The notes: generated by a model from the sequence alone, not told the origin. Counted from the stretch's first letter, positions 4,437 to 56,547 are shown. The stretch: DNA of 64,000 bases from a virus (IMGVR_UViG_3300001765_000263:1-64000); one strand, 5' to 3'. Numbers and translations: made by a program.

Positions 4437-4444
4437 TATAAATA
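4437..4444 (+). promoter_or_regulatory. T4-type late-promoter-like box, TATAAATA
   Basis: Exact TATAAATA about 95 nt upstream of the gp32 ATG, in an intergenic region. Confidence 0.35.
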
Positions 4445-16609: not shown

Positions 16610-17298
16610 CATATACAGTAACACCAATTGCGGTTCAAATAGTAGAAGGAACTCCCACATTTAACGAAACATTAACAGTTACGTGTGATGGGGAAAATAC
16701 TGGCACTGCAACGGTAATTGAAGTTACAACAGATGCAACCAGCATAGACTTGAAATACACAAAGAAAGATAACACTGCAACGGTTACTGGATCGGTAATT
16801 AAGAAATCTCTCGCAGAATTTTCAAGAACCTATTCATACGTCACAGACGATAATCAACGTGGTGTAGTTACATCGATATCACAAGTTCCATCGAATGCAT
16901 CCATTTACAGATATACCGCACCAAACCCAATGGGGAATGTAGTTCCAGCAAATATAAAAATTGAATGCACGTCTGGAACTGGTGGTACAAGTACATCAGC
17001 ATGGGCATGTGGAGTAGACACATATGGGGCATTGGGATTTAATGGGGAATCTAAAACAACACTAACCTCCCTTGGGGCATATTCAAAAATAAATCAAGGG
17101 TACGGGCTAACTGCACTAATAAAACCAAATGGCACATTATGGACATGTGGATATAATTATTTCGGTGGATTAGGACTAGGTGACAATATTAATAGATCAT
17201 CACCAACACAAGTTGGAAACTACATGGAAAGAGGTAAGTTGTGCATACAACAGATTATTTGCAATCAAGACAGATGGATCATTGTGGGGTTGTGGTGA
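16606..17298 (+). CDS. RCC1-like repeat protein, 5' segment of a frame-disrupted gene
   Basis: Has an ATG start. RCC1-type blades (WACGVDTYGALGFNGESKT..., GTLWTCGYNYFGGLGLGDNINRSSPTQVG). The frame breaks at 17215-17225, inside a 113-bp repeat. Confidence 0.5.
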   Translation: MTYTVTPIAVQIVEGTPTFNETLTVTCDGENTGTATVIEVTTDATSIDLKYTKKDNTATVTGSVIKKSLAEFSRTYSYVTDDNQRGVVTSISQVPSNASIYRYTAPNPMGNVVPANIKIECTSGTGGTSTSAWACGVDTYGALGFNGESKTTLTSLGAYSKINQGYGLTALIKPNGTLWTCGYNYFGGLGLGDNINRSSPTQVGNYMERGKLCIQQIICNQDRWIIVGLW

Positions 17299-30455: not shown

Positions 30456-33400
30456 ATGACAGTCAATTTAAACGTTGCACCATATTATGATGATTTCGAT
30501 CCATCTAAAAACTACCACAAAATTCTATTTGTTCCTGGAAGACCTATTCAAGCAAGAGAATTAACACAGATTCAATCGATTCTTCAACATCAAATAAAAC
30601 TCAATGGCGATTACATTTTCAAAAATGGGGCAATGGTTATCCCAGGTGGTGTGTCATATTTGAACAAAGTTCAATATATCAAATTGGAATCGCTATTCAA
30701 CGGTGTTGTCACAGATGACATCATCGCAAATATCTCTGGAAAGAAAATAGTTGGAGAATCGACAAACGTTAAAGCGACAGTTGTACATGTTGAACCATCA
30801 ACAAATACAGACACTCCAACAATTTATATTGCATACACATCTGGTGGCATTGTTGGTAGCACTTCATATAAAGAATTCACAATCAACGAAGTCCTTCACC
30901 TAGAAACAGATACAGATATTAAATTTCAAATTAAAAATCATTCAACATATACAGGGTTTGGGACACTAGCATCTATTCGAGAAGGCGTATATTATATCAA
31001 CGGGTTTTTCGTTCAGAACTTAGCGCAAACAATATCATTAGACAAATATGGCACAACTCCATCATATAAGGTCGGACTTGACGTTGTTGAAAATATTGTT
31101 ACTGCCACTGATGATGCTTCTATACGAGACAATGCGGTAGATTCTCCTAGTTATGGTGCTGCTGGTGCGGATAGATTACAAATTATTCTAACCATGAACA
31201 AGACACCATTGTTTGCAACTGAAGAGAATGTGAACAATACAACTGACAGTTTTATTGACTTGCTTCATGTTAAAGATGGGTATGAGCAATTCAAAATAGA
31301 TAAGACAGAGTTAGGAGAATTTGAAAAAACTCTTGCTCGTAGAACTTTTGATGAATCTGGTGACTATGTGGTTGAACCATTCGACATAAAAATCCATGAA
31401 TATAGAAATAATTTCAGGGGAGAATGGACTGTGAATACAGTATATTTGGAAGGCGACATTGTTACTACCAACACAAGTGATAATGATTATGCACCAACAG
31501 ACACATCATATTTTGTTGCAGAAAATTCTGGTGTCTCTGGGACAGCAGGAATAATTTTTAATTCTACAAGTGTTGAACAATATAATGATGGTGGATATAT
31601 TGTTTGGAATTATGAGAGAAAGCCAAAATTTAATGACGGACTATTTCAACCACAATTAACAGAATCTCTTGATACACAAATTGAAAACTCATTAAAAGCA
31701 GCATACAAAATTGCTGGCGGGAAAGCATATATCAAAGGGTATGAAATATCCAACCCAGGATATAAGATAGTTGATTTTAATAAAGCTAGAGCATATAAGA
31801 ACGTTCCCAATAGCAATGTGAATACTACCATGGGGCAGTATTTCTTAATACACAATCTACAGGGGTTATCATACTCACAATATCAACAGTTAGACTTGTT
31901 TGATAGTCTTGGCGTTCAAATTGGAACATGTATTTATAAAAATTTAGACTTTCACAGATTGGGAGTTGGTGGTCCAGAAACAAATCAATACAAATTGTTT
32001 GTTTTCGATATTCAGATGATTGAAGGTAACTACATTGAACAAATTAAGACTATTGCCGGTTCTGGATTTACTTGTTATGTGTATGGCGAAAGGAAAAAAG
32101 GGACTGGATCAGTTTCATTTGACGGGACGGATATATTTACTGGTACAGGAACGTTATTCACTACAGAGTTAAATGCCGGTGATATTATATACGTCGATGA
32201 TTCAAGATTTGTTGTTGCTAGTGTTTCATCTTCGATAGAATTGATTGTTGATGACACACAACTTCCAGATACATTGCCAACAGGGTACTATCCATTCTAT
32301 ACAGATAAAACCGCAGTTTATGGAACCCCTGGGTATATTAAAAAGCTCAACCACAATTCAGTTCGTTCTGTAAGAGGCAGTGATGATATTACTGTTGAGA
32401 CCACCTATTACGTAAATAGACTGTTTATAGAAAATTCAAACACAAACGTAATAACAATTACATTAACTAATCCAAATGAATCATTTGCGTCAGATCAGTT
32501 AGAAGGAAACTTCCTTGCAACACAAGGTTCTAATTTCCCTGTGTTGGGAGTGTCTGATGGCATTTTCACGGTTTCTGGTCCAACACTTAATATTCTTACT
32601 GTCACTGGATTTGATAATTTCTCAGGTATATACATCCAAACAACAATCAAAAAAGTCAATAGTGCAGCAAAAGAAAAACAATATTTGAAAGATTCGGATA
32701 TTAAATATGTCAACACACTAAGTCAGGCAAACGCTGACGAAATTCCATTAAATGGTGTAGCACTAAAATTAAGTGGAGTGTATCAAGCAGCAGATTTCAT
32801 ATTCGACTTTTCCCTTCCTGATGCAATTGTTGATCCTGGGCATATTGGATATTATACAATTGATGTGACAAAAAATTATGTGATAGGATCAAACGATACA
32901 CAAAACTATACCACTGCATCATATTTAAAACCAGTCAATGGATTTATACCATCCGGTCCAATCCTTATTGTATATGAAATTCTTCAACCACAAACAAATG
33001 GTGACTACTTCTCTATAAATTCATATAACGATGTGCCATACGCAGATATGCCAACATATAACGGCACAAGTATTGGTGACTATATTGATTTTAGACCAGT
33101 AAAAGAATATGACCCAAATCCTCTTTTTGTATCACAATCAGAAGCAATTTCATCGAGATATCCGTTTACATTAGACTATTCTGCATATCTTCCTCGATAC
33201 GACATTGTTCAATTGGATCCCTCTGGAAATTTCAGAATCGAAGAAGGTATTCCAAGTGACAAACCAGTAGCACCAATTCAAAATGACAATAACGTAATCA
33301 TTTCATATGCCAAATTGTCTCCATACACAATAAAGGCAGATACGAATAACATCATATTAAAAATGAATGACCTTCGTAGATACACCATGCGTGATATTGG

Positions 33401-36400
33401 TAAGATAGACAATCGTCTTAAAAACGCGGAGTATTATGTTGCTCTTACATCATTAGAAAGAGAGACAAGCGAACTTCAAATCAAAGATGAAAACGGTTTG
33501 GATAGATATAAAAATGGTTTCATCATTGATCAGTTTAAGGATCATGGTATCGGCAATATTTCAAACGTTGACTATAAATGTGCAGTTAGCCCAAAAGAAT
33601 TAGAGTGTCGTCCAACATATTACGCAGATAGCATAAAATTATTTGAAAACCTAGCAACTTCTAGAGCATCTAAACGTTATCAAATTACTGGTGATTTAGT
33701 TACTCTTCCATACACAGAAGTTCCAGTGATTGAACAAAAAATTGCTACAAGTGCAGAATATATTACTGCATATGCAAAGATAAGATCAATGACAGGAGAT
33801 TTAAAGTTATATCCTGCAGGTGACACATGGGTCGATACTGAAACCTTGCCAGAAGTTACACAACAAAGTGAAGGAAATTTCAACGCACTTCAAATACTTG
33901 CTCAATCGACCGGCATTTTGGGGGTAGTGTATGGAGGGTGGAAAGTAGACTCTCGCACCAACATAAGTTCTAACGTTAGTGTTGGTCAATCATCATCAAC
34001 AGTAAATAATGCCTTTGGTGGGTCTGCAACAACAGTTGTAACCACTACAACACTAAATGGTACAGATTCTGTTGATTTATCAAGAGAGGGGGTTGATACT
34101 CAAATTGCAGAGAGATATGACGAGGTTGGTCGTGTTACCGGTATTGTTGACCAATCATGGTCTCCTGCAATGCGCGAGAAAGCAATTGTGCTCTATTGCA
34201 AGAAGATGATGCCACTTACACCATTTGATGCATATATTGATAATATGCTTTTGACAAAATATATTGTTCCTGCATCAACAATATATTATACCTCAAAAGT
34301 AGGAAATTTCCTAGATTATTCAACATCAGATATTGATCATACTGACTTAGTGTCTCGTCAATATGGTGTGAATGAATATGACATTCTAGAACGTGGTGAG
34401 GTCATTGTTGGGCAAACATCAAACGCAACTGCAATTACAATATGTGAAGAAAGACAAAACACTAATGGTGTTGTTGAAGATGTTCTTAGGGTAGTCAATA
34501 TTAAAGGAACCTTTGTATTAGGCGAAACCATTACAGGTCAATCGTCTGGTGCGACTCTTAAATATGATGGAGTGAATACAGACTTAGTTATAAGAACGAC
34601 AAGTTCTGGTTCATTTTATGGTATTTTCATGTTGCCAAACAACGACGAACATTTGATTTACTCTGGTATTGTTACAGTGTCATTACGTAATAATCCAGAA
34701 ATGAAAGAGTCGAGCACGAGTGCTGAAGCAGCATACGATGGACATGGACTAGTACAACAAAAGCAAACTACTGTCATGTCAGTTCGTAATGCAGTATTAA
34801 TTCAAACTGATATACATGAAGAAAAAACGGAAATACAAAATTGGAGCAGACCAATATCATCAACATCGTCAACCTCTTTGTCTGGACCGCAATCTGCACC
34901 ACCCCCACCACAAAACTGTCGAGCACAAAACTGTGGTGGAGGTGGAGGTGGAGGTTTTGGAGGTGGGGGGAGAAGTTTAAATTGTAACTGTTCTGGACTG
35001 ACTGACCCATTGGCACAGACATTTATGCACAATGATCGTGGTGGTATCTTTATCACGTCAATGGATATATTCGTTCATACTTTAGATACAGAATCTTCTG
35101 CTGGAATTATTTTGCAGATACAAGAAGTGGTTAATGGATATCCAGGTCAAACAGTTGTTCCATTCAGCACTGTTACAAAACTAAATCATGAAATAAACGC
35201 ATCTTCGACAACGTTAGTGCCAACAAATTTCAAATTTGAGTCACCAGTATTCTTGAAAGAAAACACAGACTATTGCTACATTTTATCTACTGATCAATCA
35301 AATACAAAAGTATGGGTTGCTAAGATGGGTGAAGTTGGTTTGGATGGTCAAGTAGTTGTCAAACAACCAAATATGGGGTCGTTCTTCAGATCACAAAACG
35401 CATTAACATGGACATCTGATCAAATGGTTGATGTTTCGTTTGTGTTATACAAGGCAAAATTTGATATTAATGGTACTGGAACGTTCTCAATGAAGAGTTC
35501 AATTACAGATAAACTCTTAGTTGCATCAAACCCATTCAAGTTTACTGACGGAGAAAAATTAGTTAGGGTGTACCATAGGAACCATGGAATGGTGAATGGA
35601 AGTTCTGTAACATATAGTGGAGTTGATATTACTGGTTCGTCATATCCAACAAAAGCAGTTATGAATTCATCATTTATTATTTCTAATGCTGAACTTGATA
35701 CATACACAATTACGTTGCCATCTGCTGCAGAAAAATCTGGTTTGTTTGGTGGTGGTTCTGTCAAATCTACAGTGTGTAAGAGGTTTGACACTGCGTATTT
35801 AAACGGATCCGATTTTGTTTTGCCAAGTACGCACATTGATTATTCTATTAGAACAAGTATTGAAGGAACTAATAGAGTGTATAGATCACCAACATCTAGT
35901 ATTATTCAAATCAAACAAGATTTACATTATGATGTCCCTCAATTTGCATTGTCTCCAGAGAATGAAAGACTGTTCTTAAATGGTGATGCATCATTGAATG
36001 TTGAGGCATTCTTGTATAGTAACAACGAAAATGTATCACCAGTTATAGATTTCCCAACATTTGCTTTATTTGCTATAAGTAATAAGATCAACAATCCTAC
36101 TGAAGATTTGAATTTGGAAATTGACAGTCAGGGAATCATTAACTTAGCACAACCAGATGTTGGTGGTGTGGTTGAAGTTACACTTCACAGCATAATAATA
36201 TCTGGAGCATTTGTTCCTTCTCTAGTAAATCGTTTGGATATGTTTAGAGTTGGGAAGTATATTTCTATTCAATCAGAAGAGGCAGCACCAGTACCACCAA
36301 GAAAGATTGTGAAACTAGACAAACAGTATTCATCAAATTATTTTGAAGTGTTTGTTGATCCATTAGATACATTACAATTTAATGCGAACACTGGTCTTGT

Positions 36401-36839
36401 AGATCCAGTAACGATTTTCCAATACAATCATTATACTGATGTCATTTCACCAAATGCGACAAGCAACCTTGCAAATTATGTAACTCGCATTGTTACTTTG
36501 AGCAAACCATCGACTGGCATTAGAATATTGTTTGACTATAACAAACCATCAGAGTCTTTCATTGACATCTACTACAAGGTATGTATGTCTGCTGATTACA
36601 CCGATTTAGAAAAAGTGAACTGGATAAATCTGGAAGAAAACTCATCACCAAAGGTTGAGTATAAAGATAGTCAAAACTACAACACCTTCATTGAACATGA
36701 GATAAATATATCTGACATATCTGAAATAACAGACGCATATTCTGAATATGATCAAATAATGGTGAAGGTTGTAATGAGATCTAACAATACTGCTAGATGT
36801 CCAAGAATCAAGAATTTCAGATTGATTGCACTTGCATGA
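30456..36839 (+). CDS. giant modular fibre/baseplate-appendage protein (about 2127 aa). Modules: N-terminal anchor (APYYDDFD...), shared module B, a Cys/Gly-rich linker, then the DPLAQTF C-terminal module.
   Basis: Probable ATG at 30456 with AAAGGA upstream (the track's 30432 start is a TTG). The first approximately 450 aa are paralogous to the 36847 gene. aa about 870-1130 and about 1500-2127 are paralogous to the 40599 gene. Confidence 0.6.
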   Translation: MTVNLNVAPYYDDFDPSKNYHKILFVPGRPIQARELTQIQSILQHQIKLNGDYIFKNGAMVIPGGVSYLNKVQYIKLESLFNGVVTDDIIANISGKKIVGESTNVKATVVHVEPSTNTDTPTIYIAYTSGGIVGSTSYKEFTINEVLHLETDTDIKFQIKNHSTYTGFGTLASIREGVYYINGFFVQNLAQTISLDKYGTTPSYKVGLDVVENIVTATDDASIRDNAVDSPSYGAAGADRLQIILTMNKTPLFATEENVNNTTDSFIDLLHVKDGYEQFKIDKTELGEFEKTLARRTFDESGDYVVEPFDIKIHEYRNNFRGEWTVNTVYLEGDIVTTNTSDNDYAPTDTSYFVAENSGVSGTAGIIFNSTSVEQYNDGGYIVWNYERKPKFNDGLFQPQLTESLDTQIENSLKAAYKIAGGKAYIKGYEISNPGYKIVDFNKARAYKNVPNSNVNTTMGQYFLIHNLQGLSYSQYQQLDLFDSLGVQIGTCIYKNLDFHRLGVGGPETNQYKLFVFDIQMIEGNYIEQIKTIAGSGFTCYVYGERKKGTGSVSFDGTDIFTGTGTLFTTELNAGDIIYVDDSRFVVASVSSSIELIVDDTQLPDTLPTGYYPFYTDKTAVYGTPGYIKKLNHNSVRSVRGSDDITVETTYYVNRLFIENSNTNVITITLTNPNESFASDQLEGNFLATQGSNFPVLGVSDGIFTVSGPTLNILTVTGFDNFSGIYIQTTIKKVNSAAKEKQYLKDSDIKYVNTLSQANADEIPLNGVALKLSGVYQAADFIFDFSLPDAIVDPGHIGYYTIDVTKNYVIGSNDTQNYTTASYLKPVNGFIPSGPILIVYEILQPQTNGDYFSINSYNDVPYADMPTYNGTSIGDYIDFRPVKEYDPNPLFVSQSEAISSRYPFTLDYSAYLPRYDIVQLDPSGNFRIEEGIPSDKPVAPIQNDNNVIISYAKLSPYTIKADTNNIILKMNDLRRYTMRDIGKIDNRLKNAEYYVALTSLERETSELQIKDENGLDRYKNGFIIDQFKDHGIGNISNVDYKCAVSPKELECRPTYYADSIKLFENLATSRASKRYQITGDLVTLPYTEVPVIEQKIATSAEYITAYAKIRSMTGDLKLYPAGDTWVDTETLPEVTQQSEGNFNALQILAQSTGILGVVYGGWKVDSRTNISSNVSVGQSSSTVNNAFGGSATTVVTTTTLNGTDSVDLSREGVDTQIAERYDEVGRVTGIVDQSWSPAMREKAIVLYCKKMMPLTPFDAYIDNMLLTKYIVPASTIYYTSKVGNFLDYSTSDIDHTDLVSRQYGVNEYDILERGEVIVGQTSNATAITICEERQNTNGVVEDVLRVVNIKGTFVLGETITGQSSGATLKYDGVNTDLVIRTTSSGSFYGIFMLPNNDEHLIYSGIVTVSLRNNPEMKESSTSAEAAYDGHGLVQQKQTTVMSVRNAVLIQTDIHEEKTEIQNWSRPISSTSSTSLSGPQSAPPPPQNCRAQNCGGGGGGGFGGGGRSLNCNCSGLTDPLAQTFMHNDRGGIFITSMDIFVHTLDTESSAGIILQIQEVVNGYPGQTVVPFSTVTKLNHEINASSTTLVPTNFKFESPVFLKENTDYCYILSTDQSNTKVWVAKMGEVGLDGQVVVKQPNMGSFFRSQNALTWTSDQMVDVSFVLYKAKFDINGTGTFSMKSSITDKLLVASNPFKFTDGEKLVRVYHRNHGMVNGSSVTYSGVDITGSSYPTKAVMNSSFIISNAELDTYTITLPSAAEKSGLFGGGSVKSTVCKRFDTAYLNGSDFVLPSTHIDYSIRTSIEGTNRVYRSPTSSIIQIKQDLHYDVPQFALSPENERLFLNGDASLNVEAFLYSNNENVSPVIDFPTFALFAISNKINNPTEDLNLEIDSQGIINLAQPDVGGVVEVTLHSIIISGAFVPSLVNRLDMFRVGKYISIQSEEAAPVPPRKIVKLDKQYSSNYFEVFVDPLDTLQFNANTGLVDPVTIFQYNHYTDVISPNATSNLANYVTRIVTLSKPSTGIRILFDYNKPSESFIDIYYKVCMSADYTDLEKVNWINLEENSSPKVEYKDSQNYNTFIEHEINISDISEITDAYSEYDQIMVKVVMRSNNTARCPRIKNFRLIALA

Positions 36840-36846
36840 GGTAACT

Positions 36847-38607
36847 ATGCCAAAAGAGTTTAATGCTGCACCATATTATGATGATTATGATGAAAGCAAA
36901 AATTATCACAAAATAATCTTCAACCCTAATGCGACATTGCAGTCGAGAGAATTAACACAACTGCAGTCTGTTATTCAAAATCAGGTGGAGCGTCTCTCGA
37001 ACTTTACCTTTGAAAATGGTGCAATGGTAATACCAGGAAATATATCCTACATCGGCAATTCGATATGTGTCAAGATTGATAAATTGTACAATGGATTATC
37101 CGTGGCAAACTATATTGGGACTATGACAGATAAAATTGTCGTAGGTAGTGACACCAATGTACGAGCAAAAATATATCATTCTGGTGTAGACTTGGATTCT
37201 GCTTATGTATTCATTTCATATATTTCTGGTGGTATTGACTCTTTTGGAACTCATCATGCAGAATTTGTTCAGGGAGAAACTTTAACATTACTAGACAAAA
37301 GCAATTCAATCAATGTGTCTAATGAAGAAGAGTTTTATTCTTATGGTTCTCTAGCTACAGTAAATGCGGGAGTTTATTATTTTAACGGATATTTTGTAGA
37401 GAACCAAAAACAAACTATTACAATAGACAGATACAGCACAGAACCATCTTGCCAAATTGGGTTTAATGTTGAAATTCAATCCGTATCATCAATTGATGAT
37501 GAATCACTGACAGATAACTCTTCCGGTTTCAACAATCCTGTTGCTATCGGTGCAGATAGAATGAAAATTGATCTTGTTTTAAGTAAGCACGATTACTTTT
37601 CTACATTAACAAACATCAAATTTATATCACTTCTTAGAGTCAAAGATGGAACAATTCAGTCTATTGTTAATAAGACACAATTGAGTAGAATGGGAGACTT
37701 GTTAGCAAAGAGAACATATGAAGAATCTGGAGATTACTTAGTAAAACCATTTAAATATGAACTGTTTGATTATAGAGATAATAGACGTGGTGAATGGGTA
37801 GGGAAAACTGCATATCTTGCTGGAGACATTTGTCAAATTGAAGCTAACGGAAATGTGCTAACCTTAATGGCATTGTCTGACGGCATATCTTCCTCAGTAA
37901 AACCAAAAGAATCAATCGGAATAATAAAAGACGGAAGTTTAAGATGGGTGGTAACATCAAAACCATATTATAACAAAGGATATGCATCACCATCGAATAC
38001 AGACACCCTAGAACAACATATGGAAAATGCAGACCTCGGTGTTTTAAAAATATCTGGTGGTCAAGCATATCTTCGTGGCAAGGATGTTGATTTAAGAAGT
38101 GGATTTAAAACTGTGGTTTTTACAAAAGCGCGGGATTCTAAAAAAATGGATCCATTTTATGTTGAATCTCCTGTTGGTCAATATTTGTTGGTAACAAAAG
38201 TAATAGGATTGCCTGTCATAACTACTGTAGATGAAACCAACTATGCGCTTAAGACACATAATATATTAGATCAAGGTGGTGGAGTTATTGGGTCATGCAA
38301 AGTAAGAAATTTTGAGTTCCATGCATCAAGCAAATACATTTTTGACAACAACACTTTTAGTGTATATAAAATCCATGTGTTTGATATACTATTTCTTAAT
38401 GGAAAAAGTCTAGGGAATGATGCTGCCTATATAGGTTCTAAAGATGGAACTTTTTTGGCAATGATAACAGGTGATTTATTACAACTGCCTGGGTTTATAA
38501 ATAGGTCGACAAATATTGGTAACGATAATATCTTTGCTGGCACAGGGAATGTTCTGAACAATCATCTTAAGGTAAGAGATAAAATTTATGTTAAAGAGAA
38601 TGTGTAA
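36847..38607 (+). CDS. paralogue of the giant fibre protein's N-terminal about 590 aa, carrying the same N-terminal anchor module (APYYDDYDESKNYHKIIF...RELTQLQS)
   Basis: ATG at 36847 with GAGGT upstream (the track's 36826 start is a TTG). Similarity to the 30456 product is collinear over hundreds of residues (GVYYFNGYFVENQKQTI..., ESGDYLVKPF..., RRGEWVGKTAYLAGDI). Confidence 0.55.
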   Translation: MPKEFNAAPYYDDYDESKNYHKIIFNPNATLQSRELTQLQSVIQNQVERLSNFTFENGAMVIPGNISYIGNSICVKIDKLYNGLSVANYIGTMTDKIVVGSDTNVRAKIYHSGVDLDSAYVFISYISGGIDSFGTHHAEFVQGETLTLLDKSNSINVSNEEEFYSYGSLATVNAGVYYFNGYFVENQKQTITIDRYSTEPSCQIGFNVEIQSVSSIDDESLTDNSSGFNNPVAIGADRMKIDLVLSKHDYFSTLTNIKFISLLRVKDGTIQSIVNKTQLSRMGDLLAKRTYEESGDYLVKPFKYELFDYRDNRRGEWVGKTAYLAGDICQIEANGNVLTLMALSDGISSSVKPKESIGIIKDGSLRWVVTSKPYYNKGYASPSNTDTLEQHMENADLGVLKISGGQAYLRGKDVDLRSGFKTVVFTKARDSKKMDPFYVESPVGQYLLVTKVIGLPVITTVDETNYALKTHNILDQGGGVIGSCKVRNFEFHASSKYIFDNNTFSVYKIHVFDILFLNGKSLGNDAAYIGSKDGTFLAMITGDLLQLPGFINRSTNIGNDNIFAGTGNVLNNHLKVRDKIYVKENV

Positions 38608-40583
38608 TGGCTAATGTATTTAGAAAATATAAAGTAAGTGGGTTTGAAACATTTACAGAAAATTCAATGACTGTTGATCCTCTTATAGAAAACGGATACT
38701 TAGTACAGTGTGAGGTGTTTAAAGAAAAGCAGATTGCTACATTAGGAGATGGAGATTCTTTAGTTGCAAAATTGCAGCATGAGTATATTAAAAACACTCA
38801 TGATGAAGATGGAAAATCACAACTAGTGTATTATGTCAATAGAACATTTCAAGCTAGGGCAGATGGATATGGAACATTATCTATATCATTAAACACAGAA
38901 GGTGAAACTTTTCCAGCAGAAAATCCTGAATTATTTTTGGTTTCTCGTGTCGTAAATGATGGGGAATACGGGGTATATACTGCACCGGAACATATTGAAA
39001 ATGACGGGGTTGGGGTAAATTCAAATTCAAACGTGTATTTAAACAGTGACTTCACTAGGGCATATTTTGAAGGATTAAGTGGTGGGGACGAATATAGAGT
39101 TATCGCCACTGTTAAAAAAGAAGGTAGTGCAGTAAGAGAGAAAACAAAAACACTTAACACAAAAACCATCTTTATAAATAAACTTTCAAAGTGTAGTAAG
39201 ACTGAAATACAATTAGGTAAGGCAGACGTTGTTGCGTTACTGTCTGTAAAACAATCAAGTGGTGAAAAGTTTAATCCATCAAATCCAGACACATTTTTGC
39301 CGTATGTTGCTACAAGTGAGGTGGATGTCAGTGATGCATATAAACTAGACCCAAAGACAACCGAAAATTTTTATGGTAATAGTACCATAGTCTCTGTAAA
39401 AGATTTCACTCCTGCTGCACCACTAAAAATAACCTTTTTATATTATGAACACTCTGACGGTGATGTATATACAGTAAATTCGTATGATCATCTACTCAAT
39501 TTTATTCCAACATACTCAAACCTTTCTCTCGGATCATGTTTAGACTTTAGACCAAAAGCATCTAGTTTAAATATATATTATGAAGATGAGACAGGTGGGC
39601 AGACTGATAATGACGACGACCCAACTACACCAACAGAATCATCACAGAATAAAACTATATGGGCAATTGGCGGCGAACAAGGATGTCAATTAGGAGTTGG
39701 CAACCATTTGGTTGAACAAATTGAACAAATTGGACCAGATCTTGGCAATACGTGGTCACAAATATCTGTTGGATATCCACATGGTATGGCAATTAAACAA
39801 GATGGGTCGTTATGGGGATGGGAAACTAGAACTAGTGGTGGTGATGGTGCAATAGATTATTTTCCGTTAGGATTGCCATCAGTTACTATGCCAGAATGCA
39901 CAATATTTCAAATATTACAAGAAAATATTGATTGTAATTTGAAGACTGCTGACTACGATCCAACAATACAAGACTGGAATTGGAAGATGGTTGCTTGTGG
40001 ATATAACACTACAATTGCGGTCAAAACAGATGGTACATTATGGTCAGTTGGTCTTAATGATGTTGGGCAATTGGGGCAAGGTGATACAACAAATAGAATA
40101 GAATTCACCAGAATAGGAACAGAAACAAATTGGGATAAATGTTACATGGGGAATAAATCTGCTGCAGCAATCACTAAAGATGGAGATGTGTTTACTTGGG
40201 GAGAAAATACAAACTGTCAATTAGGGTTAGGGCATACAAATACTGTGTATGCTCCAGAACAAGTAGAGTTTGATGCTGATCCAGACCACAATGTCAAGAT
40301 TAAAGAAGTATCTATTTCTGTAAATGGACTATTTATGACTGCAGTTAGTCAAGCAGGTGGTATATATGGATGGGGGTATGACGAATTTGGGACTCTATTT
40401 CCACAGTGTGGTGGTGGAAGTGGGGAAAGTGGGGAAAGTGGTATAACTGCTATATGCACCCCATGTAGATTTGGTAAAAAATGCGATTGGGATAATATAT
40501 CGTCAGGAGACAATTTCATTGCAGCAATCAAGACAAATGGAACAATATGGACTTGGGGTGGAACTGGCGAAAATCCACCATGA
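38607..40583 (+). CDS. structural protein with a unique N-terminal half (about 330 aa) and a C-terminal RCC1-like beta-propeller region
   Basis: ATG overlaps the previous TAA. C-terminal blades include VACGYNTTIAVKTDGTLWSVGLNDVGQLGQGDTTNR... and VFTWGENTNCQLGLGHTNTVYAPEQV. Confidence 0.55.
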   Translation: MANVFRKYKVSGFETFTENSMTVDPLIENGYLVQCEVFKEKQIATLGDGDSLVAKLQHEYIKNTHDEDGKSQLVYYVNRTFQARADGYGTLSISLNTEGETFPAENPELFLVSRVVNDGEYGVYTAPEHIENDGVGVNSNSNVYLNSDFTRAYFEGLSGGDEYRVIATVKKEGSAVREKTKTLNTKTIFINKLSKCSKTEIQLGKADVVALLSVKQSSGEKFNPSNPDTFLPYVATSEVDVSDAYKLDPKTTENFYGNSTIVSVKDFTPAAPLKITFLYYEHSDGDVYTVNSYDHLLNFIPTYSNLSLGSCLDFRPKASSLNIYYEDETGGQTDNDDDPTTPTESSQNKTIWAIGGEQGCQLGVGNHLVEQIEQIGPDLGNTWSQISVGYPHGMAIKQDGSLWGWETRTSGGDGAIDYFPLGLPSVTMPECTIFQILQENIDCNLKTADYDPTIQDWNWKMVACGYNTTIAVKTDGTLWSVGLNDVGQLGQGDTTNRIEFTRIGTETNWDKCYMGNKSAAAITKDGDVFTWGENTNCQLGLGHTNTVYAPEQVEFDADPDHNVKIKEVSISVNGLFMTAVSQAGGIYGWGYDEFGTLFPQCGGGSGESGESGITAICTPCRFGKKCDWDNISSGDNFIAAIKTNGTIWTWGGTGENPP

Positions 40584-40598
40584 AACAAAGGAATATAA

Positions 40599-43500
40599 AT
40601 GGCTAACGAATGTTTAGGATGGGAACAGGACAATCTTCTTTTCGATACAGATGATGATGATTGGGGGCAAAGAGGTTGGCCACTCGATGAGTGGAAAGGT
40701 ATATCAGCAGGATATAGAAATATTCTCGCTATTAAAAAAGATGGAACATTATGGACATGCGGGGATATTGATGCATGGCAAATAACTGGAGACGGATATC
40801 CAGTAATGATAGATGAATCTACTGATTGGTCTTTTGTCGGTAGTTCTTATGATAACGAATGGGGGGAAATAGTTTTATATGGAATGAAAACCTTATCTAG
40901 TTCATCAGAACAAGAAGTATTGACAGACACAGATATAGAATTTAAAACAGACAATAACACCGACATTGTTAGGTTAGATACCTCTGACCCATCAACAACA
41001 AATATCGGTAGTTTTGTGTATGCAAAACATTTAGGGGACGCATCAGTTCCAGAACCATTGTCGTCTAAATTTCCAATTCAGATAGCATATGATTATTATT
41101 TACCAAGAAGAGATATTTTAGAAATAAATGACAAGGGTGGGTTTAGATTGGAGCAAGGAATATCTGGTGATACTCCTGCAACACCAATGACCAATGAAGA
41201 TTATACTCTTTTGGCAAAATTAGAACTTCGTCCTTACAATGCAAATGTTAAAAATAGCATTAGCATAAAAGAAGACCCAATTCGCAGATATACCATGCGT
41301 GATATTGGACATCTTGAAAAAAGACTTGAGAACACAGAATTGACAATATCATCAATTGCAGTTAATGATGTCACAGCATCAATCAAAACTCTCGATGAAA
41401 ATGGATTGAATAGATTTAAATGTGGGTTCTTAACTGATACTTTTACTGATCATGCGAAATCCAATGTTGCAGATCCATCATTTAAGGTCGCAATTGATTA
41501 TATGAAACAAGAATGCCGTCCTACATACTATGCAGACAATATTAAATTGATTGAAGCAGATAAGAACCTAAGAAAGAACAACTTCTACACAGTGTCTGGT
41601 GATCTAGTGACATTGCCATACATAGAGGTAGAATTCCTTGGGAATATGTACGGGTCAACACCTCAAAATATCACACCTCTAACAAATATTAGAAGAAAGA
41701 ACGGGACGCTCAATATTTGGCCAACCTCAGATTCATGGATGTCAACAGAGCAGACGGCAGACATTAATCAGATAAGTGATGGCAACTACACGTCAATGAA
41801 ACAGATTGTTGACAAATTGGATGTCACTGGAACTGTTTATGGTGCATGGACAGAAGTTGACAAAAACATCGAAGTAACTGGCAATACAACAAGAACCGAA
41901 ACTGTCGGATGGACAACCAACACAATAAACACACAAACTGGCGTAATAACGACTGATTTTATACGAGAAGGTGAAGAAACATATGCTGAAGAGATAGAGA
42001 CTGAAATTGGTAGAGTCAATCTTATGCAAACCTCTGCATGGGATGAACACATCAGATCAAGATCAATCGTGTTATATGCACAAGGGTTCTTACCACAACA
42101 TAATATGTTTGTGATTGTTGATAACTACGACCTATCTGAATTTGTTGAACCTGCTAGAAGTATTGCATACACATCGAAAACTGGAACATTTTTAAACTAT
42201 TTGAATTCATCGATAGATCATTCGAATCTCGAATATAGACAGTATGGAGATAATTCATACAATATTCTAGAACGTGGTGAAATAGTTATTGGACAAACAT
42301 CTAATGCTTCTGCGATATTATTGAATGATGAATATGGCAATTTAAAAGTTGTTAATGTCAAGGGTGATTTTTCCGTTGGGGAAATTGTTTTGGGAATGAC
42401 CTCTGGTGCATCAGTTGTTATTAGCGGGTTAAGTGATGATTCATTACAAACGAGTCAATCAGGAACATTTTATGGAATATTGAATCTTCCGTCAGATTCT
42501 AAACATAAAATTTATAGTGGCATTATGCCAATTGTGATAAGAGATAGTTTAATTGCAGAACAAGCAACCACATCAGGGTCAGCAACTTATGATGCACATG
42601 GTATATCAAATACTGCAAATACCACAATTATGTCAGTGAAAAATTTGGATGTTGGCAAGAGAAAGATTATTGAGACAAACACTACTGTCGAAAACTTTTC
42701 CACATCAACTGTCGTGTCCTCAGTGATTGATTGGGCGGCATTTATTGCTGCTAATATTCAAGCTGGAGATGGAGGTGGAGGTGGAGGTGGAGATCCACTA
42801 GCGCAATCATTCCAAATTCAATCAGACGCGGGTGGAGTGTTTATAACTCATATTGATTTATTTGTGTATAGTGTTAATCAAACAGAACCAGTGTTTTTGG
42901 AAATTAGAGAAATGTTCAACGGATTTCCATCAACAACAGTAGTTCCCATGAGTACTGTGTATAAAAATGTGGAAGATCTAACCCCATCTACGACTGAACT
43001 TATACCAACATCATTTGTATTTGAATCCCCAATATTCCTTAAGAGTGGCACTGAGTATTGTTTTGTCATTGGTTCCCCATATATGGGTGATCAAGGTGTT
43101 GAAGTGTGGGCATCTGTATTAGGTGATGTTGATATCTATGGCAACACTACAATAGACCAACCATCTTTTGGATCAATGTTTATATCTCAAAATGGTTCAA
43201 CATGGGATGCTGAACAATATAAAGATGTGTGTTTTATGATACATAAAGCACAATTTGATACTACCAACGTAGGTCAAGTGATGTTTGTCAATAATAAATT
43301 TGATTATGACAAGATGGATATTGATCCTATAAGGGTAAAAACCGGCATAAGTGAAGCAAGAGTATTACATAAAAATCATGGGTTTGTTGTAGGGGATGCA
43401 GTCACTATTAACGATCCAAACGATGAATTGGTTGGTAGTACGAGTTTTTCTGCTATTACAAAGACATTTAATATTACAAATACGACGTTAGATTCTTTTA

Positions 43501-44570
43501 TGATACCGATCAATGCTGCAAGCATGGATGTTTGGACTGGAAAGAGTTCTATATCTCTCTCCACCAACAAGAAGTTTGATGAATTGTATCTTGATGGTAG
43601 AGATTTTGTTTTACCAAATACTCAAGTCGAATACAGATTCAAGAAGACTACGTTAGCAAGAAAACTTGATACAATGTATTATCCAATTAATCTAAAACAA
43701 ACATATGCCCTTGACGATTCTGGATGGATTCTCTCTGAAGAGAATGAAGATCTTTTCTTAGATGGAGAAAAATCCTTCTATACAAAAGCACTGTTATATT
43801 CGTCACATCCTGATGTGTCGCCCGTAATTGATTTGTCAACATACTCCGTAAATTGCATAACAAACAGAATTGACAATATGTTGCCCGAATATAGTAATAG
43901 ACAAGTTGATGATGTTTTAATTCATGATGGCACAAATACATATGATTTTGAGGTTGTTGATGATGGACTTTATATCATAACCTGTGATGGTATTAATGAT
44001 AAATTTAAAGTTGGTGGTGTTATATATTTTACCGGTGGAGATGCCCCATGCTTAAACACTAACATTGACATGATAATTATTAATAAAACAGCAACAACCA
44101 TATTGGTTAAACCTGTCAATGATGTAGAGATTTTACAAGAAGAAGTAATACTAGATGCTGATATGGACATTCATCAGTATGATTTTTATGTGGATTCTGT
44201 TTCCCCAACATCACAGTCAAACGCAGCAAGTTATGTTCCATTAACATTTACAACAACAATACCTGCAAAAGGGTTTATCATGTTGTTTGATTATAACGTG
44301 CCAACATCTACATCTATTAGACTTTTCTATAAGACATCCCACACGTCGAAAATAGAAGATATAAATAAGAAGTCGTGGGTGGAATTTCCAGAAGAAAATG
44401 TTACTCCTTATATAAATTCATCTAATCCAACGCATTATATTGAAAAGCGCATTGATATTGATACAATCGATGACACTTTTGACACGTTATCAGTAAAGGT
44501 TGAATTTAGATCAGACATCACTACGAAAATTCCAAAAATCAAAAACTTTAGAATATTGACGGTGGTCTAA
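40599..44570 (+). CDS. mosaic fibre protein (1323 aa): a short N-terminal RCC1 segment, shared module B, a poly-Gly linker, then the DPLAQSF C-terminal module
   Basis: YLPRRDILEINDKGGFRLEQGISGDTPATP / RRYTMRDIG / ECRPTYYADNIKL / GDLVTLPYIEV match the 30456 product. GGGGGGGDPLAQSFQ...VFITHIDLFVY...FNGFPSTTVVPMSTV... and the C-terminal PKIKNFRILTVV match its C-terminal module. Confidence 0.6.
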   Translation: MANECLGWEQDNLLFDTDDDDWGQRGWPLDEWKGISAGYRNILAIKKDGTLWTCGDIDAWQITGDGYPVMIDESTDWSFVGSSYDNEWGEIVLYGMKTLSSSSEQEVLTDTDIEFKTDNNTDIVRLDTSDPSTTNIGSFVYAKHLGDASVPEPLSSKFPIQIAYDYYLPRRDILEINDKGGFRLEQGISGDTPATPMTNEDYTLLAKLELRPYNANVKNSISIKEDPIRRYTMRDIGHLEKRLENTELTISSIAVNDVTASIKTLDENGLNRFKCGFLTDTFTDHAKSNVADPSFKVAIDYMKQECRPTYYADNIKLIEADKNLRKNNFYTVSGDLVTLPYIEVEFLGNMYGSTPQNITPLTNIRRKNGTLNIWPTSDSWMSTEQTADINQISDGNYTSMKQIVDKLDVTGTVYGAWTEVDKNIEVTGNTTRTETVGWTTNTINTQTGVITTDFIREGEETYAEEIETEIGRVNLMQTSAWDEHIRSRSIVLYAQGFLPQHNMFVIVDNYDLSEFVEPARSIAYTSKTGTFLNYLNSSIDHSNLEYRQYGDNSYNILERGEIVIGQTSNASAILLNDEYGNLKVVNVKGDFSVGEIVLGMTSGASVVISGLSDDSLQTSQSGTFYGILNLPSDSKHKIYSGIMPIVIRDSLIAEQATTSGSATYDAHGISNTANTTIMSVKNLDVGKRKIIETNTTVENFSTSTVVSSVIDWAAFIAANIQAGDGGGGGGGDPLAQSFQIQSDAGGVFITHIDLFVYSVNQTEPVFLEIREMFNGFPSTTVVPMSTVYKNVEDLTPSTTELIPTSFVFESPIFLKSGTEYCFVIGSPYMGDQGVEVWASVLGDVDIYGNTTIDQPSFGSMFISQNGSTWDAEQYKDVCFMIHKAQFDTTNVGQVMFVNNKFDYDKMDIDPIRVKTGISEARVLHKNHGFVVGDAVTINDPNDELVGSTSFSAITKTFNITNTTLDSFMIPINAASMDVWTGKSSISLSTNKKFDELYLDGRDFVLPNTQVEYRFKKTTLARKLDTMYYPINLKQTYALDDSGWILSEENEDLFLDGEKSFYTKALLYSSHPDVSPVIDLSTYSVNCITNRIDNMLPEYSNRQVDDVLIHDGTNTYDFEVVDDGLYIITCDGINDKFKVGGVIYFTGGDAPCLNTNIDMIIINKTATTILVKPVNDVEILQEEVILDADMDIHQYDFYVDSVSPTSQSNAASYVPLTFTTTIPAKGFIMLFDYNVPTSTSIRLFYKTSHTSKIEDINKKSWVEFPEENVTPYINSSNPTHYIEKRIDIDTIDDTFDTLSVKVEFRSDITTKIPKIKNFRILTVV

Positions 44571-44761
44571 TGGATAAATTATCAAAGCGAAATGGGGTTG
44601 TTATAAACAATGATACTGCAGCATATGACAGGTATATGACAGAGAGGAACAAACTGAAAGCAGCAAATAATGAGATGAATATCTTAAAAACCAGAATAAC
44701 CAAACTGGAATCTGAAATGGAGGATGTTAAGGTTATCCTTAAACGATTGATAGAAAGATAA
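44570..44761 (+). CDS. small coiled-coil protein (63 aa) directly upstream of the radical-SAM gene
   Basis: ATG overlaps the upstream stop. Heptad-like sequence ...NNEMNILKTRITKLESEMEDVKVILKRLIER. No Cys. Confidence 0.4.
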   Translation: MDKLSKRNGVVINNDTAAYDRYMTERNKLKAANNEMNILKTRITKLESEMEDVKVILKRLIER

Positions 44762-46145: not shown

Positions 46146-46148
46146 TAC

Positions 46149-46156
46149 TATAAATA
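46149..46156 (+). promoter_or_regulatory. T4-type late-promoter-like box, TATAAATA
   Basis: Exact TATAAATA 29 nt upstream of the ATG at 46185, in a 39-bp intergenic gap. Confidence 0.35.
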
Positions 46157-46184
46157 TTAGATAATCACTAGTCAGAGGCGAACC

Positions 46185-56546: not shown

Positions 56547-56547
56547 A

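What the first reader, a model, noticed from the sequence alone, without database searches (positions are those of the whole stretch)
30456..44570. Mosaic fibre gene set built from shuffled modules, with a shared N-terminal anchor on two proteins
Genes 30456 (2127 aa) and 36847 (587 aa) begin with the same module of about 75 aa: M(T/P)..N.(N/A)APYYDD(F/Y)D(P/E)SKNYHKI(L/I)F.P......(A/S)RELTQ(I/L)QS...NGAMVIPG. They then stay collinear for about 450 aa. Gene 40599 has no anchor. It starts with RCC1 blades and then carries two further modules of the 2127-aa protein. One is the YLPR(Y/R)D...RRYTMRDIG...ECRPTYYAD...GDLVTLPY module. The other is the whole poly-Gly/DPLAQSF C-terminal module of about 600 aa, down to the terminal P(R/K)IKNFR(L/I)(I/L) motif. 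Gene 38607 pairs a unique N-half with RCC1 blades. Sharing an N-terminal anchor among several fibre proteins is the usual way multiple receptor-binding proteins dock to one baseplate site. Here that mechanism is combined with extensive domain exchange.
Basis: seen in the sequence. Interest (0 to 1): 0.6.

Follow-up and report, generated by a model that had tools for sequence, protein, structure and literature searches.

The report
Duplicated, split baseplate tripod gene
The four "mosaic fibre genes" are two side-by-side copies of one giant baseplate protein of a T4-like phage: the second copy is cut into three genes and carries an inserted seven-bladed propeller domain that is itself divided between two of them, which makes it an unusual variant of a known protein rather than a shuffled gene set.

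Summary
Gene 30456 (2127 aa) is a full-length member of the DUF4815/VrlC family. This family includes the "tripod" protein of double-layered myovirus baseplates (phage 812 gp119, A511 gp106). Gene 30456 sits where that gene belongs, directly after the gp6, gp7-like and gp8 genes.

Genes 36847, 38607 and 40599, read in order, align end to end with the 2127-aa protein:
- g2 1-585 matches g1 1-583.
- g3 53-316 matches g1 628-881.
- g4 149-1323 matches g1 893-2127.

They are therefore a tandem paralogue split into three ORFs. The only large difference is a ~480-aa RCC1 propeller inserted at g1 881-895. The g3/g4 gene boundary falls inside this propeller, in the turn after the sixth of its seven "WxWG" strands.

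One related metagenomic phage has the same pair of copies, with the same first split, but its propeller lies in a single ORF. About 100 other loci with a complete N-terminal ORF carry one copy; 19 of those loci have it split into two or three ORFs.

The most likely function is a second, three-chain tripod complex on the baseplate arm that carries an extra propeller for binding. This is a new variant of a known kind and of moderate interest.

The parts
21787..28905 (+). Context: giant gp7-like baseplate wedge / arm-scaffold candidate (2372 aa), the presumed docking partner of the tripod proteins.
   Evidence: PHROG baseplate-wedge families. The N-terminal residues 5-119 match T4 gp7 642-759, E=5e-5. 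Its position between gp6 (20021) and gp8 mirrors phage 812 gp117 (PMC13433997).
28952..30442 (+). Context: gp8-like baseplate wedge / arm-segment protein (496 aa).
   Evidence: phrog_438, E=1.5e-82. T4 gp8 (PDB 1n7z), E=1e-8. Pfam Phage-Gp8 on the identical JGI gene.
30456..36839 (+). Copy A (g1): full-length DUF4815/VrlC 'tripod' homologue in one 2127-aa chain.
   Evidence: Pfam DUF4815, 188.8 bits against a cut-off of 30. phrog_358, 1251 bits. The only PDB match is the 1152-aa DUF4815 chain of the phage 812 baseplate, E=1e-39, in four collinear blocks. It is 30% identical over 100% of its length to the 'virulence associated protein' of Synechococcus phage BUCT-ZZ01.
30456..30647 (+). N-terminal family signature of copy A (aa 1-64: ..APYYDDFDPSKNYHKILF..ARELTQIQS..NGAMVIPG).
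   Evidence: 37/64 identical to g2. It aligns with residues 1-59 of the phage 812 chain.
36847..38607 (+). Copy B, piece 1 (g2, 586 aa). Equivalent to g1 1-583 and carries the N-terminal signature (36847-37038).
   Evidence: blastp against g1: 35% identity, E=9e-108, end to end. Pfam DUF4815, 99.6 bits. Its orthologue b599 in L001 is 47% identical and is also a separate ORF. Its stop overlaps the g3 start (TAATG).
38607..39644 (+). Copy B, piece 2, tripod part (g3 aa 1-346). Equivalent to about g1 584-881.
   Evidence: blastp: g3 53-316 matches g1 628-881, E=2e-18. phrog_358 589-858, E=5e-29. HMMER: query 13-330 matches positions ~565-884 of 2000-aa proteins.
39645..40919 (+). Inserted seven-bladed RCC1-like propeller, encoded across two ORFs (g3 aa 347-658 plus g4 aa 1-107). 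It sits at the position of g1 881-895.
   Evidence: Pfam RCC1/RCC1_2/WD40_RLD. This is the only large insertion in the global alignment. Blade motifs were counted. Single-domain RCC1 proteins of 364-403 aa align to 93-98% of the concatenation, across the junction. The AF2 model has pTM 0.78 and matches whole RCC1-like domains (HERC2 RLD2 TM 0.80). The domain is continuous in the orthologue c2355 of L001.
40581..40601 (+). g3/g4 fission site: TGA AAC AAA GGA ATA TAA ATG, giving two in-frame stops, an AAGGA ribosome-binding site and a new ATG. It lies within a ~14-codon insertion in the 'WxWG-x-N..GQLG' turn after the sixth of the seven WxWG strands.
   Evidence: Sequence read directly. Alignment to the unsplit orthologue: WTWGGTGENPP*NKGI*MANECLGW against WAWG-RNEYGQLG. 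The sequence is identical in the JGI and Logan assemblies.
40599..44570 (+). Copy B, piece 3 (g4, 1323 aa). It holds the last blades of the propeller (aa 1-~107), a linker, and then the equivalent of g1 893-2127 (from nt 41043), including poly-Gly/DPLAQSF (42771-42812) and the terminal IKNFR.
   Evidence: blastp against g1: 35% identity over 1252 columns, E=0. tblastn places the match at 41043-44564. Pfam DUF4815, 62.5 bits.

Best explanation
The region encodes two tandem paralogues of the DUF4815/VrlC 'tripod' protein. This is the large trimeric protein that hangs on the arms of double-layered myovirus baseplates, next to the gp7-like scaffold and gp8.

Shown:
- Copy A is a single 2127-aa chain.
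- Copy B is the same protein, collinear from end to end, but encoded as three consecutive ORFs of 586, 658 and 1323 aa.
- Copy B has a seven-bladed RCC1 propeller inserted at the point equivalent to g1 881-895.
- The first split (g2|g3) is shared with the one related phage that also has the duplication. It lies at a boundary where single-copy genes of other phages are also split.
- The second split (g3|g4) was seen only in this phage. It lies inside the propeller and was created by a ~14-codon insert that carries a stop, a ribosome-binding site and a start codon.

Inferred:
- All four polypeptides are made and enter the virion.
- g2, g3 and g4 re-associate non-covalently into a tripod-like trimer of three-chain units. 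The g3-g4 contact is provided at least partly by completion of the propeller in trans: g3 supplies one closing strand plus five blades, and g4 supplies one blade plus the rest of the closing blade.
- Copies A and B both dock on the gp7-like arm scaffold, plausibly at the two non-equivalent sites that in phages 812 and A511 are both filled by one protein.
- The diverged C-terminal parts and the added propeller give copy B a different surface-binding specificity.
For: Family identity:
- Pfam DUF4815 scores well above its cut-off for g1, g2 and g4. phrog_358 covers g1 3-1696, g2 4-526, g3 47-324 and g4 79-953, at profile positions that follow one another.
- The sole PDB sequence match is the 1152-aa DUF4815 chain of the phage 812 baseplate entries (9EUJ, 9EUK, 9TIC, 9TIF-H). 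These entries are described as containing tripods.
- Gene order gp6, gp7-like, gp8, DUF4815 equals 812 gp117-118-119.
- The literature equates VrlC with the A511 baseplate protein (PMC4621102; PMC9863714).

Collinearity:
- Shown by blastp, by global alignment with one insertion and by constant motif offsets.

Duplication within the lineage:
- L001 (IMGVR_UViG_3300001765_000038) has gp8, a 2153-aa copy A (49% identical to g1), a 599-aa piece (47% to g2) and a 2355-aa piece equal to g3+g4.
- An NJ tree of 120 N-terminal modules puts the four sequences in one clade, with the A copies paired and the B copies paired.

Splits are real and tolerated:
- All pieces are long open ORFs in a 36% GC genome, and they are retained at 36-47% identity in L001.
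- g4 has its own RBS and ATG after two stops.
- The JGI and Logan assemblies are identical.
- Of 99 single-copy loci with a complete N-terminal ORF, 19 are split. Their N-terminal pieces of 517, 573 and 577 aa match g2's 586 aa. In most of them (13 of 19 loci) a separate ORF starts at the DPLAQSF module.

Propeller:
- Supported by the blade count, end-to-end alignment to single-domain RCC1 proteins and a model with pTM 0.78 that matches complete RCC1-like domains.
Against: - There is no expression, proteomic or structural data for this phage, so assembly of the three chains and completion of the propeller in trans are inferences.
- The propeller model was guided by an alignment of intact propellers, and the junction loop has low confidence (pLDDT<50 over residues 310-338).
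- The g3|g4 split is unique to this sequence, so it could be a recent and possibly deleterious lesion.
- Elsewhere in the same contig an RCC1 gene is broken by a one-base frame change in an A-run. The assembly, or the phage, therefore does carry disrupted genes.
- The JGI and Logan assemblies may derive from the same reads.
- Assigning the two copies to inner and outer docking sites is an analogy with phages about 30% identical over parts of the protein. Copy A is also nearly twice as long as the 812 protein.
- That PDB chain 9euf_0 is the tripod (gp119) is deduced from which entries contain it and from synteny. The PDB label itself does not say so.
Confidence: 0.75

Rival explanations
1. Copy B is a decaying pseudogene. 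After duplication it became redundant and is being broken up by nonsense and frameshift mutations, so g2-g4 are relics that make no functional protein.
For: The g3|g4 break lies inside a folded domain and is absent from the only relative. Another RCC1 gene in the window (16606/17180) is broken by a frame change. Against outgroups, copy B scores lower than copy A in its N- and C-terminal parts: 322 against 365 bits and 449 against 573 bits.
Against: - The three pieces total 2567 codons, and their only interruptions are exactly at the two junctions, in a 36% GC genome.
- The orthologous pieces in L001 are as conserved as copy A (47% against 49%) and are also open.
- The g2|g3 split is shared by both phages, so it has persisted through more than 50% sequence divergence.
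- The family-conserved motifs are intact in g2 and g4.
- The g3/g4 junction carries a well-placed RBS and ATG within a 14-codon insert rather than a simple point lesion.
- Single-copy genes of this family exist in split form in other phages.
Confidence: 0.1
2. One reading: a mosaic set of distinct fibre or receptor-binding proteins, built by exchange of modules, in which two proteins use a common N-terminal anchor to dock alternately or jointly at one baseplate site.
For: g1 and g2 do share the N-terminal module, which is the best-conserved 50 aa (56% against ~35% overall). RCC1 domains occur in many neighbouring fibre genes, so one domain has indeed been added to copy B.
Against: - Module order is identical in copy A and in g2+g3+g4, so no permutation is present.
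- g3 and g4 have no anchor of their own and make sense only as continuations of g2.
- The homology between A and B does not stop after the anchor.
- The RCC1 insert is only 28-35% identical to the other RCC1 genes in the window, and it is orthologous to the insert in L001. It is an old insertion, not ongoing exchange.
- The N-terminal module is universal in a family that is mostly single-copy.
Confidence: 0.07
3. The splits are artefacts or are bypassed. Sequencing or assembly errors, programmed frameshifting, or stop-codon readthrough or recoding would mean that copy B is really made as one ~2570-aa chain.
For: g3 and g4 are in the same reading frame. The window holds at least one probable homopolymer frame error. 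TGA is the commonest stop, 15 of 26.
Against: - Between g3 and g4 there are two different stops (TGA, then TAA four codons later), so recoding TGA alone would not fuse them.
- Relative to the unsplit orthologue the junction is a 14-codon insertion, not a substitution or a one-base indel.
- g2|g3 is split in L001 too, from a different sample, with a different spacer (10 nt) and different frames. No conserved slippery site is therefore present.
- Two assemblies agree base for base.
Confidence: 0.05

Closest known systems
Tripod protein of Herelleviridae baseplates (phage 812 gp119, PDB 9EUJ/9EUK/9TIC and others; Listeria phage A511 gp106)
   Same: - Same Pfam family (DUF4815).
- Four collinear conserved blocks, including the N-terminal 59 aa and the DPLAQSF block.
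- Same gene order after the gp7-like scaffold and the gp8-like arm segment.
- Two tripod trimers per arm in 812 and A511.
   Different: - g1 is about twice as long, with large extra segments between the conserved blocks.
- No LysM-type hook was detected (Pfam).
- In 812 and A511 one gene supplies both inner and outer tripods. Here there are two diverged genes.
- The second gene is split into three ORFs and carries an RCC1 propeller.
VrlC / 'virion structural protein' of T4-like cyanomyophages and pelagimyophages (for example Synechococcus phage BUCT-ZZ01 2097 aa, Pelagibacter phage Mosig, Syn33)
   Same: - Full-length collinear homology at 30% identity over 100% of g1.
- Same position after gp8 and before the variable host-recognition cluster with radical-SAM cassettes (PMC7029224).
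- Similar size, ~2000-2700 aa.
   Different: - Sequenced isolates almost always have one copy: 1690 places in 1677 records.
- No RCC1 domain sits inside the gene in any of ~135 fetched loci except this lineage.
- Here the gene is duplicated and copy B is split.
Multi-RBP phages whose tailspikes or fibres share an N-terminal adaptor (Ackermannviridae TSP1-4 with gp10-like domains, G7C gp63.1/gp66, SP6/K1-5). This comparison is recalled from knowledge and was not tested beyond Pfam and PDB sequence searches.
   Same: Two adjacent baseplate-periphery proteins begin with the same conserved module.
   Different: - In those systems the shared anchor is followed by unrelated enzymatic or binding domains. 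Here homology continues to the C-terminus.
- No gp9/gp10-type domain was detected.
- The module is the family's own N-terminus.
RCC1-like seven-bladed beta-propellers (RCC1, HERC2 RLD, RPGR, UVR8) and bacterial or phage 'alpha-tubulin suppressor-like RCC1 family' proteins
   Same: - Repeat signature, seven blades and N/C-terminal closing blade.
- The model superposes on whole RLDs with TM 0.72-0.80.
- 93-98% coverage by single-domain homologues.
   Different: - The domain is inserted in the middle of a tripod protein.
- It is encoded by two separate ORFs, with the break in the tight WG-x-N turn after the sixth of the seven WxWG strands. I know of no described RCC1-like domain split in this way (from memory, not searched exhaustively).

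Membership tests
DUF4815 / VrlC / tripod protein family | Significant match to Pfam PF16075 above its gathering score. | tested here: met
   g1 188.8, g2 99.6 and g4 62.5 bits against a cut-off of 30. g3 has no Pfam hit, but it matches phrog_358 at E=5e-29 and the middle of ~2000-aa family members by HMMER.
DUF4815 / VrlC / tripod protein family | Sequence homology to the experimentally solved tripod chain (phage 812). | tested here: met
   phmmer E=9.8e-40 with four collinear stretches. That this chain is gp119 is inferred from the entries that contain it and from synteny.
DUF4815 / VrlC / tripod protein family | Gene located directly downstream of the gp7-like scaffold and the gp8-like arm segment in the baseplate module. 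| tested here: met
   The order is gp6 20021, gp7-like 21787, gp8 28952, g1 30456. The same holds in L001 and L005.
DUF4815 / VrlC / tripod protein family | Forms trimers attached to docking loops of the arm scaffold, and is a component of a double-layered baseplate. | not testable with these tools
   This needs virion proteomics or cryo-EM. It is known only for phages 812 and A511 (PMC13433997, PMC9863714).
Shared N-terminal anchor, multi-RBP docking system | A common N-terminal anchor followed by unrelated receptor-binding or enzymatic domains in the different proteins. | tested here: not met
   g1 and g2+g3+g4 are homologous and collinear over their whole length.
Shared N-terminal anchor, multi-RBP docking system | The anchor is related to known baseplate-attachment domains (T4 gp9/gp10 N-terminal domains, tailspike adaptors). 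| tested here: not met
   Pfam, PHROGs and PDB sequence searches return only DUF4815/tripod. No fold-level comparison of the N-terminal module was done.
Mosaic / module-shuffled fibre genes | Homologous modules occur in different order or in different combinations among the genes. | tested here: not met
   There is a single collinear path with one insertion. Motif offsets between g1 and g4 are constant.
RCC1-like beta-propeller domain | RCC1 repeat signature, with seven blades forming a closed propeller. | tested here: met
   Pfam RCC1, RCC1_2 and WD40_RLD. Seven 'WxWG' strands are present in the concatenation. The AF2 model with pTM 0.78 matches whole RLDs. The model depends on its alignment.
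RCC1-like beta-propeller domain | The propeller is formed by one polypeptide. | tested here: not met
   Two in-frame stops and a new start separate g3 from g4 after the sixth of the seven WxWG strands.

The most novel reading that the evidence does not exclude
The phage has turned the two non-equivalent tripod positions of a double-layered baseplate arm (inner and outer, filled by one protein in phages 812 and A511) into two genetically separate components. One position would hold a single-chain tripod. The other would hold a three-chain tripod whose middle and distal chains are clasped together by a seven-bladed RCC1 propeller completed in trans. That would be a natural split-propeller assembly joint that also serves as an extra receptor-binding module.
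Probability: 0.2. Interest if true: 0.55.

Novelty: new variant of a known kind. Interest (0 to 1): 0.35.

Why it matters
- VrlC/tripod proteins are core components of abundant marine and freshwater T4-like phages, and of therapeutic Herelleviridae and Ackermannviridae. Outside Herelleviridae their role is known only by homology.
- A lineage with two diverged copies offers a natural experiment on how the two tripod positions of a double-layered baseplate can specialise.
- It also shows that this ~2000-aa protein tolerates being cut at defined boundaries: after about 520-600 aa, and before the DPLAQSF module.
- Those boundaries are useful for domain-wise expression, for structure determination and for engineering host range.
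- The propeller divided between two genes is a compact natural case of protein-fragment complementation.
- For annotation, such runs of ORFs should be read as one split tripod gene, not as independent fibre genes.

Tried and rejected
- **Megablast against phages.** The 14-kb region found no match, so identity came from protein searches only.
- **Single-sequence AlphaFold of the fused propeller.** It failed (pLDDT 34). It was repeated with a 40-row alignment.
- **The search for homologous proteins with g3 1-335.** It returned nothing, not even the protein itself. I treated this as a tool miss and replaced it with the exhaustive HMMER search.
- **Stop-codon recoding or readthrough.** Considered and rejected: TGA is followed by TAA, and TAG is never used as a stop among the 26 large ORFs.
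- **Programmed frameshift at g2/g3.** Rejected because the junction differs in L001.
- **T4 late-promoter motif TATAAATA.** It occurs at chance frequency, 8 hits against 8.2 expected, so no operon substructure could be inferred.
- **Recent intragenomic origin of the RCC1 insert.** Rejected: it is only 28-35% identical to the other RCC1 genes in the window.
- **Horizontal acquisition of copy B.** Not supported by the NJ tree or by nearest-neighbour distances. No bootstrap was done.
- **Literature searches.** Searches for RCC1 in phage fibres and for DUF4815 gave nothing relevant.

Full report
**Observation**

I call them g1 to g4.

- g1 and g2 begin with the same module. 37 of the first 64 residues are identical.
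- Every motif quoted for g1 and g4 is present in both, at a nearly constant offset of 744-804 residues. These are YLPR(Y/R)D, RRYTMRDIG, ECRPTYYAD, GDLVTLPY, poly-Gly + DPLAQ(T/S)F and terminal IKNFR.
- The similarities are far beyond chance: blastp E=9e-108 for g1/g2 and E=0 for g1/g4.

A global alignment of g1 against the concatenation g2+g3+g4 runs collinearly from the first residue to the last. It has one large insertion of about 480 residues at g1 881-895. PHROG profile coordinates tell the same story: on phrog_358, g2 covers 6-467, g3 covers 589-858 and g4 covers 817-1635. An exhaustive HMMER search of 1.84 billion representative proteins with g3 1-335 found 128 relatives. Most are 2000-2400 aa long and most are matched around their positions 560-950.

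**What the protein is**

- g1, g2 and g4 match Pfam DUF4815 well above its threshold.
- tblastn finds the family in 1677 phage records. These include T4-like cyanophages and pelagiphages ('VrlC', 'virion structural protein'), Vi01-like phages ('VrlC/VriC') and Herelleviridae ('adsorption-associated tail protein').
- The only solved relative is the 1152-aa DUF4815 chain of the Staphylococcus phage 812 baseplate (E=1e-39). It aligns in four collinear blocks: g1 1-59, 173-311, 905-1137 and 1514-1689 against chain residues 1-59, 75-199, 397-615 and 789-964.
- That chain is found in the entries described as containing inner tripods and arm segments A and B. Its gene order, arm scaffold gp117, arm segment gp118, tripod gp119, matches the window exactly. 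The window has gp6 (20021), a 2372-aa gp7-like protein (21787; T4 gp7 E=5e-5), gp8 (28952; T4 gp8 E=1e-8) and then g1.
- The literature identifies VrlC with the A511 baseplate protein gp106. Two gp106 trimers per arm make the double-layered baseplate (PMC4621102; PMC9863714).
- In phage 812, twelve tripod trimers dock through flap-domain loops onto two docking loops of each arm scaffold. They reorient on adsorption (PMC13433997).
- The window as a whole is the baseplate and host-recognition module of a T4-like myovirus. It includes gp48, gp53, gp5, gp25, gp6, gp7 and gp8, followed by a radical-SAM gene and a run of RCC1-rich giant proteins. This layout matches the 'host recognition cluster' described downstream of VrlC in pelagimyophages (PMC7029224).

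**Anatomy of copy B**

The g2|g3 boundary falls at g1 ~583 with no loss of sequence. The g2 stop overlaps the g3 start (TAATG).

The insertion in copy B is an RCC1-like propeller that runs from g3 residue ~347 to g4 residue ~107.

- The repeat signature 'h-A-h-K-x-D/N-G-x-h-W-x-W-G-x-N-x-x-G-Q-L-G' can be followed seven times.
- g3 contributes an N-terminal closing strand plus five blades. g4 contributes one blade plus the remaining strands of the closing blade.
- Single-domain RCC1 proteins of 364-403 aa align to 93-98% of the concatenated sequence, straight across the junction.
- An AlphaFold model built with a 40-sequence alignment has pTM 0.78. Its strands are of high confidence, and a low-confidence loop covers the junction.
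- The model superposes on complete RCC1-like domains: HERC2 RLD2 TM 0.80, RPGR 0.77, RCC1 0.72-0.74. The single-sequence model had failed. The good model depends on an alignment of intact propellers, so it shows consistency, not proof.

The junction DNA reads ...CCA CCA TGA AAC AAA GGA ATA TAA ATG GCT.... It therefore has two stops, an AAGGA ribosome-binding site and an ATG. Compared with the unsplit orthologue, it is a ~14-codon insertion in the tight WG-x-N turn (WTWGGTGENPP*NKGI*MANECLGW against WAWG-RNEYGQLG).

**Comparative evidence**

One IMG/VR contig (L001/L088, from a different sample) has the same arrangement. After gp8 it encodes a 2153-aa copy A (49% identical to g1), a 599-aa ORF (47% to g2) and a 2355-aa ORF. 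The last equals g3+g4 with the propeller uninterrupted, plus a second RCC1 propeller further upstream. Orthologues are more similar than paralogues (35-38%). In an NJ tree of 120 N-terminal modules the four sequences form one clade, with the A copies paired and the B copies paired. So the duplication, the RCC1 insertion and the first fission predate the divergence of the two phages. The second fission was seen only in the window's phage.

I fetched about 135 loci through the N-terminal motif and classified them:

| Class | Loci |
|---|---|
| One unsplit gene (1123-2751 aa) | 80 |
| Cut by a contig end | 36 |
| Single copy split into two or three ORFs | 19 |
| Two N-terminal modules | only the window's own contigs and L001/L088 |

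The split sites recur. N-terminal pieces of 517, 573 and 577 aa (L005, L006/7, L081) match g2's 586 aa and b599. In 13 of the 19 split loci a separate ORF begins at g1 ~1515-1518, just before DPLAQSF. Most have real spacers between the ORFs. [quoted passage not shown] Split single-copy forms must therefore be able to assemble. An RCC1 domain inside a DUF4815 homologue occurs only in the window and in L001. The N-terminal module occurs only twice in the window.

**Are the splits real?**

- The window is identical to a JGI contig (3300002026, MIS_10000120, 81.6 kb) and to an independent Logan assembly of SRR931349 over 26847-48607. The reads may be shared between the two.
- The g2|g3 split is corroborated by L001.
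- The g3|g4 split needs a 14-codon insertion with two stops. It cannot be a one-base error or a product of TGA recoding.
- One caution remains. The RCC1 ORFs 16606-17298 and 17180-18934 read as one gene broken by a one-base frame change in an A-run. The assembly, or the phage, is therefore not free of such lesions.

**Mechanism**

Shown: there are two paralogous tripod genes, and the second is fragmented and decorated with a propeller.

Inferred:
- Copy A forms a conventional single-chain trimer.
- g2, g3 and g4 associate into a second tripod-like complex. g2 carries the conserved N-terminal part that, in the 812 structure, belongs to the region that docks on the arm scaffold.
- g3 and g4 have no such module and can reach the baseplate only through g2.
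- The g3-g4 contact is plausibly made by completing the propeller in trans.
- 812 and A511 place two trimers of one protein at two non-equivalent sites on each arm. The two paralogues here may have divided those sites between them.
- The C-terminal thirds are the least conserved parts between A and B. Together with the propeller, they are the likely surface-binding parts.
- Against outgroups, copy B is slightly more diverged than A in its N- and C-terminal parts, but not in the middle.

**Rivals**

- A decaying pseudogene is unlikely. The pieces are long, and L001 conserves them.
- An artefact, readthrough or frameshift is unlikely, given the junction anatomy.

**Novelty and verdict**

The family, its baseplate role and its genomic position are known. 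Three things are new here: a tandem pair of diverged tripod genes, an RCC1 propeller inserted in one of them, and its fragmentation into three ORFs with the propeller itself divided. Tandem copies are rare. Only 13 of 1677 phage records show two matches, and only one other lineage among ~135 metagenomic loci has them. This is a new variant of a known kind. It is of moderate interest to phage structural biologists, and it corrects the 'mosaic' reading.

Noticed in passing
window 16606-18934 (frame change near 17215-17220): The overlapping RCC1 ORFs 16606-17298 and 17180-18934 read as one RCC1-repeat gene interrupted inside a blade. Frame 1 ends '...RSSPTQVGN' and frame 2 continues 'TTWKEVSCAYNRLFAIKTDGSLWGCG'. 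One extra A in the run 'ggaaac' would restore 'QVGKTTWKEVS'. This could be a homopolymer sequencing error, a real frameshift mutation or programmed slippage.
   Followed up: partly
window 47895-62438: There are five consecutive RCC1-rich ORFs of 1824, 606, 460, 1271 and 709 aa. Their ends overlap or abut (53347/53369, 55164/55167, 56546/56548, 60309/60363). They may be a multi-subunit fibre set, or another large gene or genes fragmented like copy B. RCC1 propellers appear to be this phage's dominant putative adhesion module.
   Followed up: partly
window 44570-44761: A small 63-aa ORF starts on the g4 stop (TAATG). Its sequence looks coiled-coil-like (..NEMNILKTRITKLESEMEDVKVILKRLIER). It is also called as a gene in the JGI and Logan records. 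It could be a fibre-assembly or chaperone-type protein.
   Followed up: no
window 44766-47888: A radical-SAM protein (459 aa) and an unassigned 567-aa protein sit between the tripod genes and the RCC1 fibre genes. Radical-SAM cassettes in the host-recognition cluster downstream of VrlC were noted for pelagimyophages (PMC7029224).
   Followed up: no
L001 9899-16966 (IMGVR_UViG_3300001765_000038): The orthologue of g3+g4 is one 2355-aa ORF that carries two RCC1 propellers. One is at residues ~130-500 and is absent from the window's g3. The other is at the conserved site, ~695-1100. Propeller insertion into copy B has therefore happened more than once, or one propeller was lost in the window's lineage.
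   Followed up: partly
L005, L006/L007, L081, L017/L030/L052, L053, L077, L078, L090, L110/L116, L111-L113, L134/L136/L137: Single-copy DUF4815/VrlC genes of other metagenomic T4-like phages are split into two or three ORFs at recurrent boundaries: after ~520-580 aa, at about g1 1100-1365, and just before the DPLAQSF module at g1 ~1515. In this sample 19 of 99 single-copy loci with a complete N-terminal ORF are split.
   Followed up: partly
whole window: None of the 26 large ORFs ends in TAG (TGA 15, TAA 11). The T4 late-promoter motif TATAAATA occurs at chance frequency (8 against 8.2 expected). Three of its copies are intergenic and lie just upstream of ORFs, at 4437, 46149 and 62439.
   Followed up: partly
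window 35420-35836 and 38849-39292, minus strand: Antisense ORFs of 138 and 147 aa lie inside g1 and g3. No evidence of coding was sought, and they are most likely spurious.
   Followed up: no
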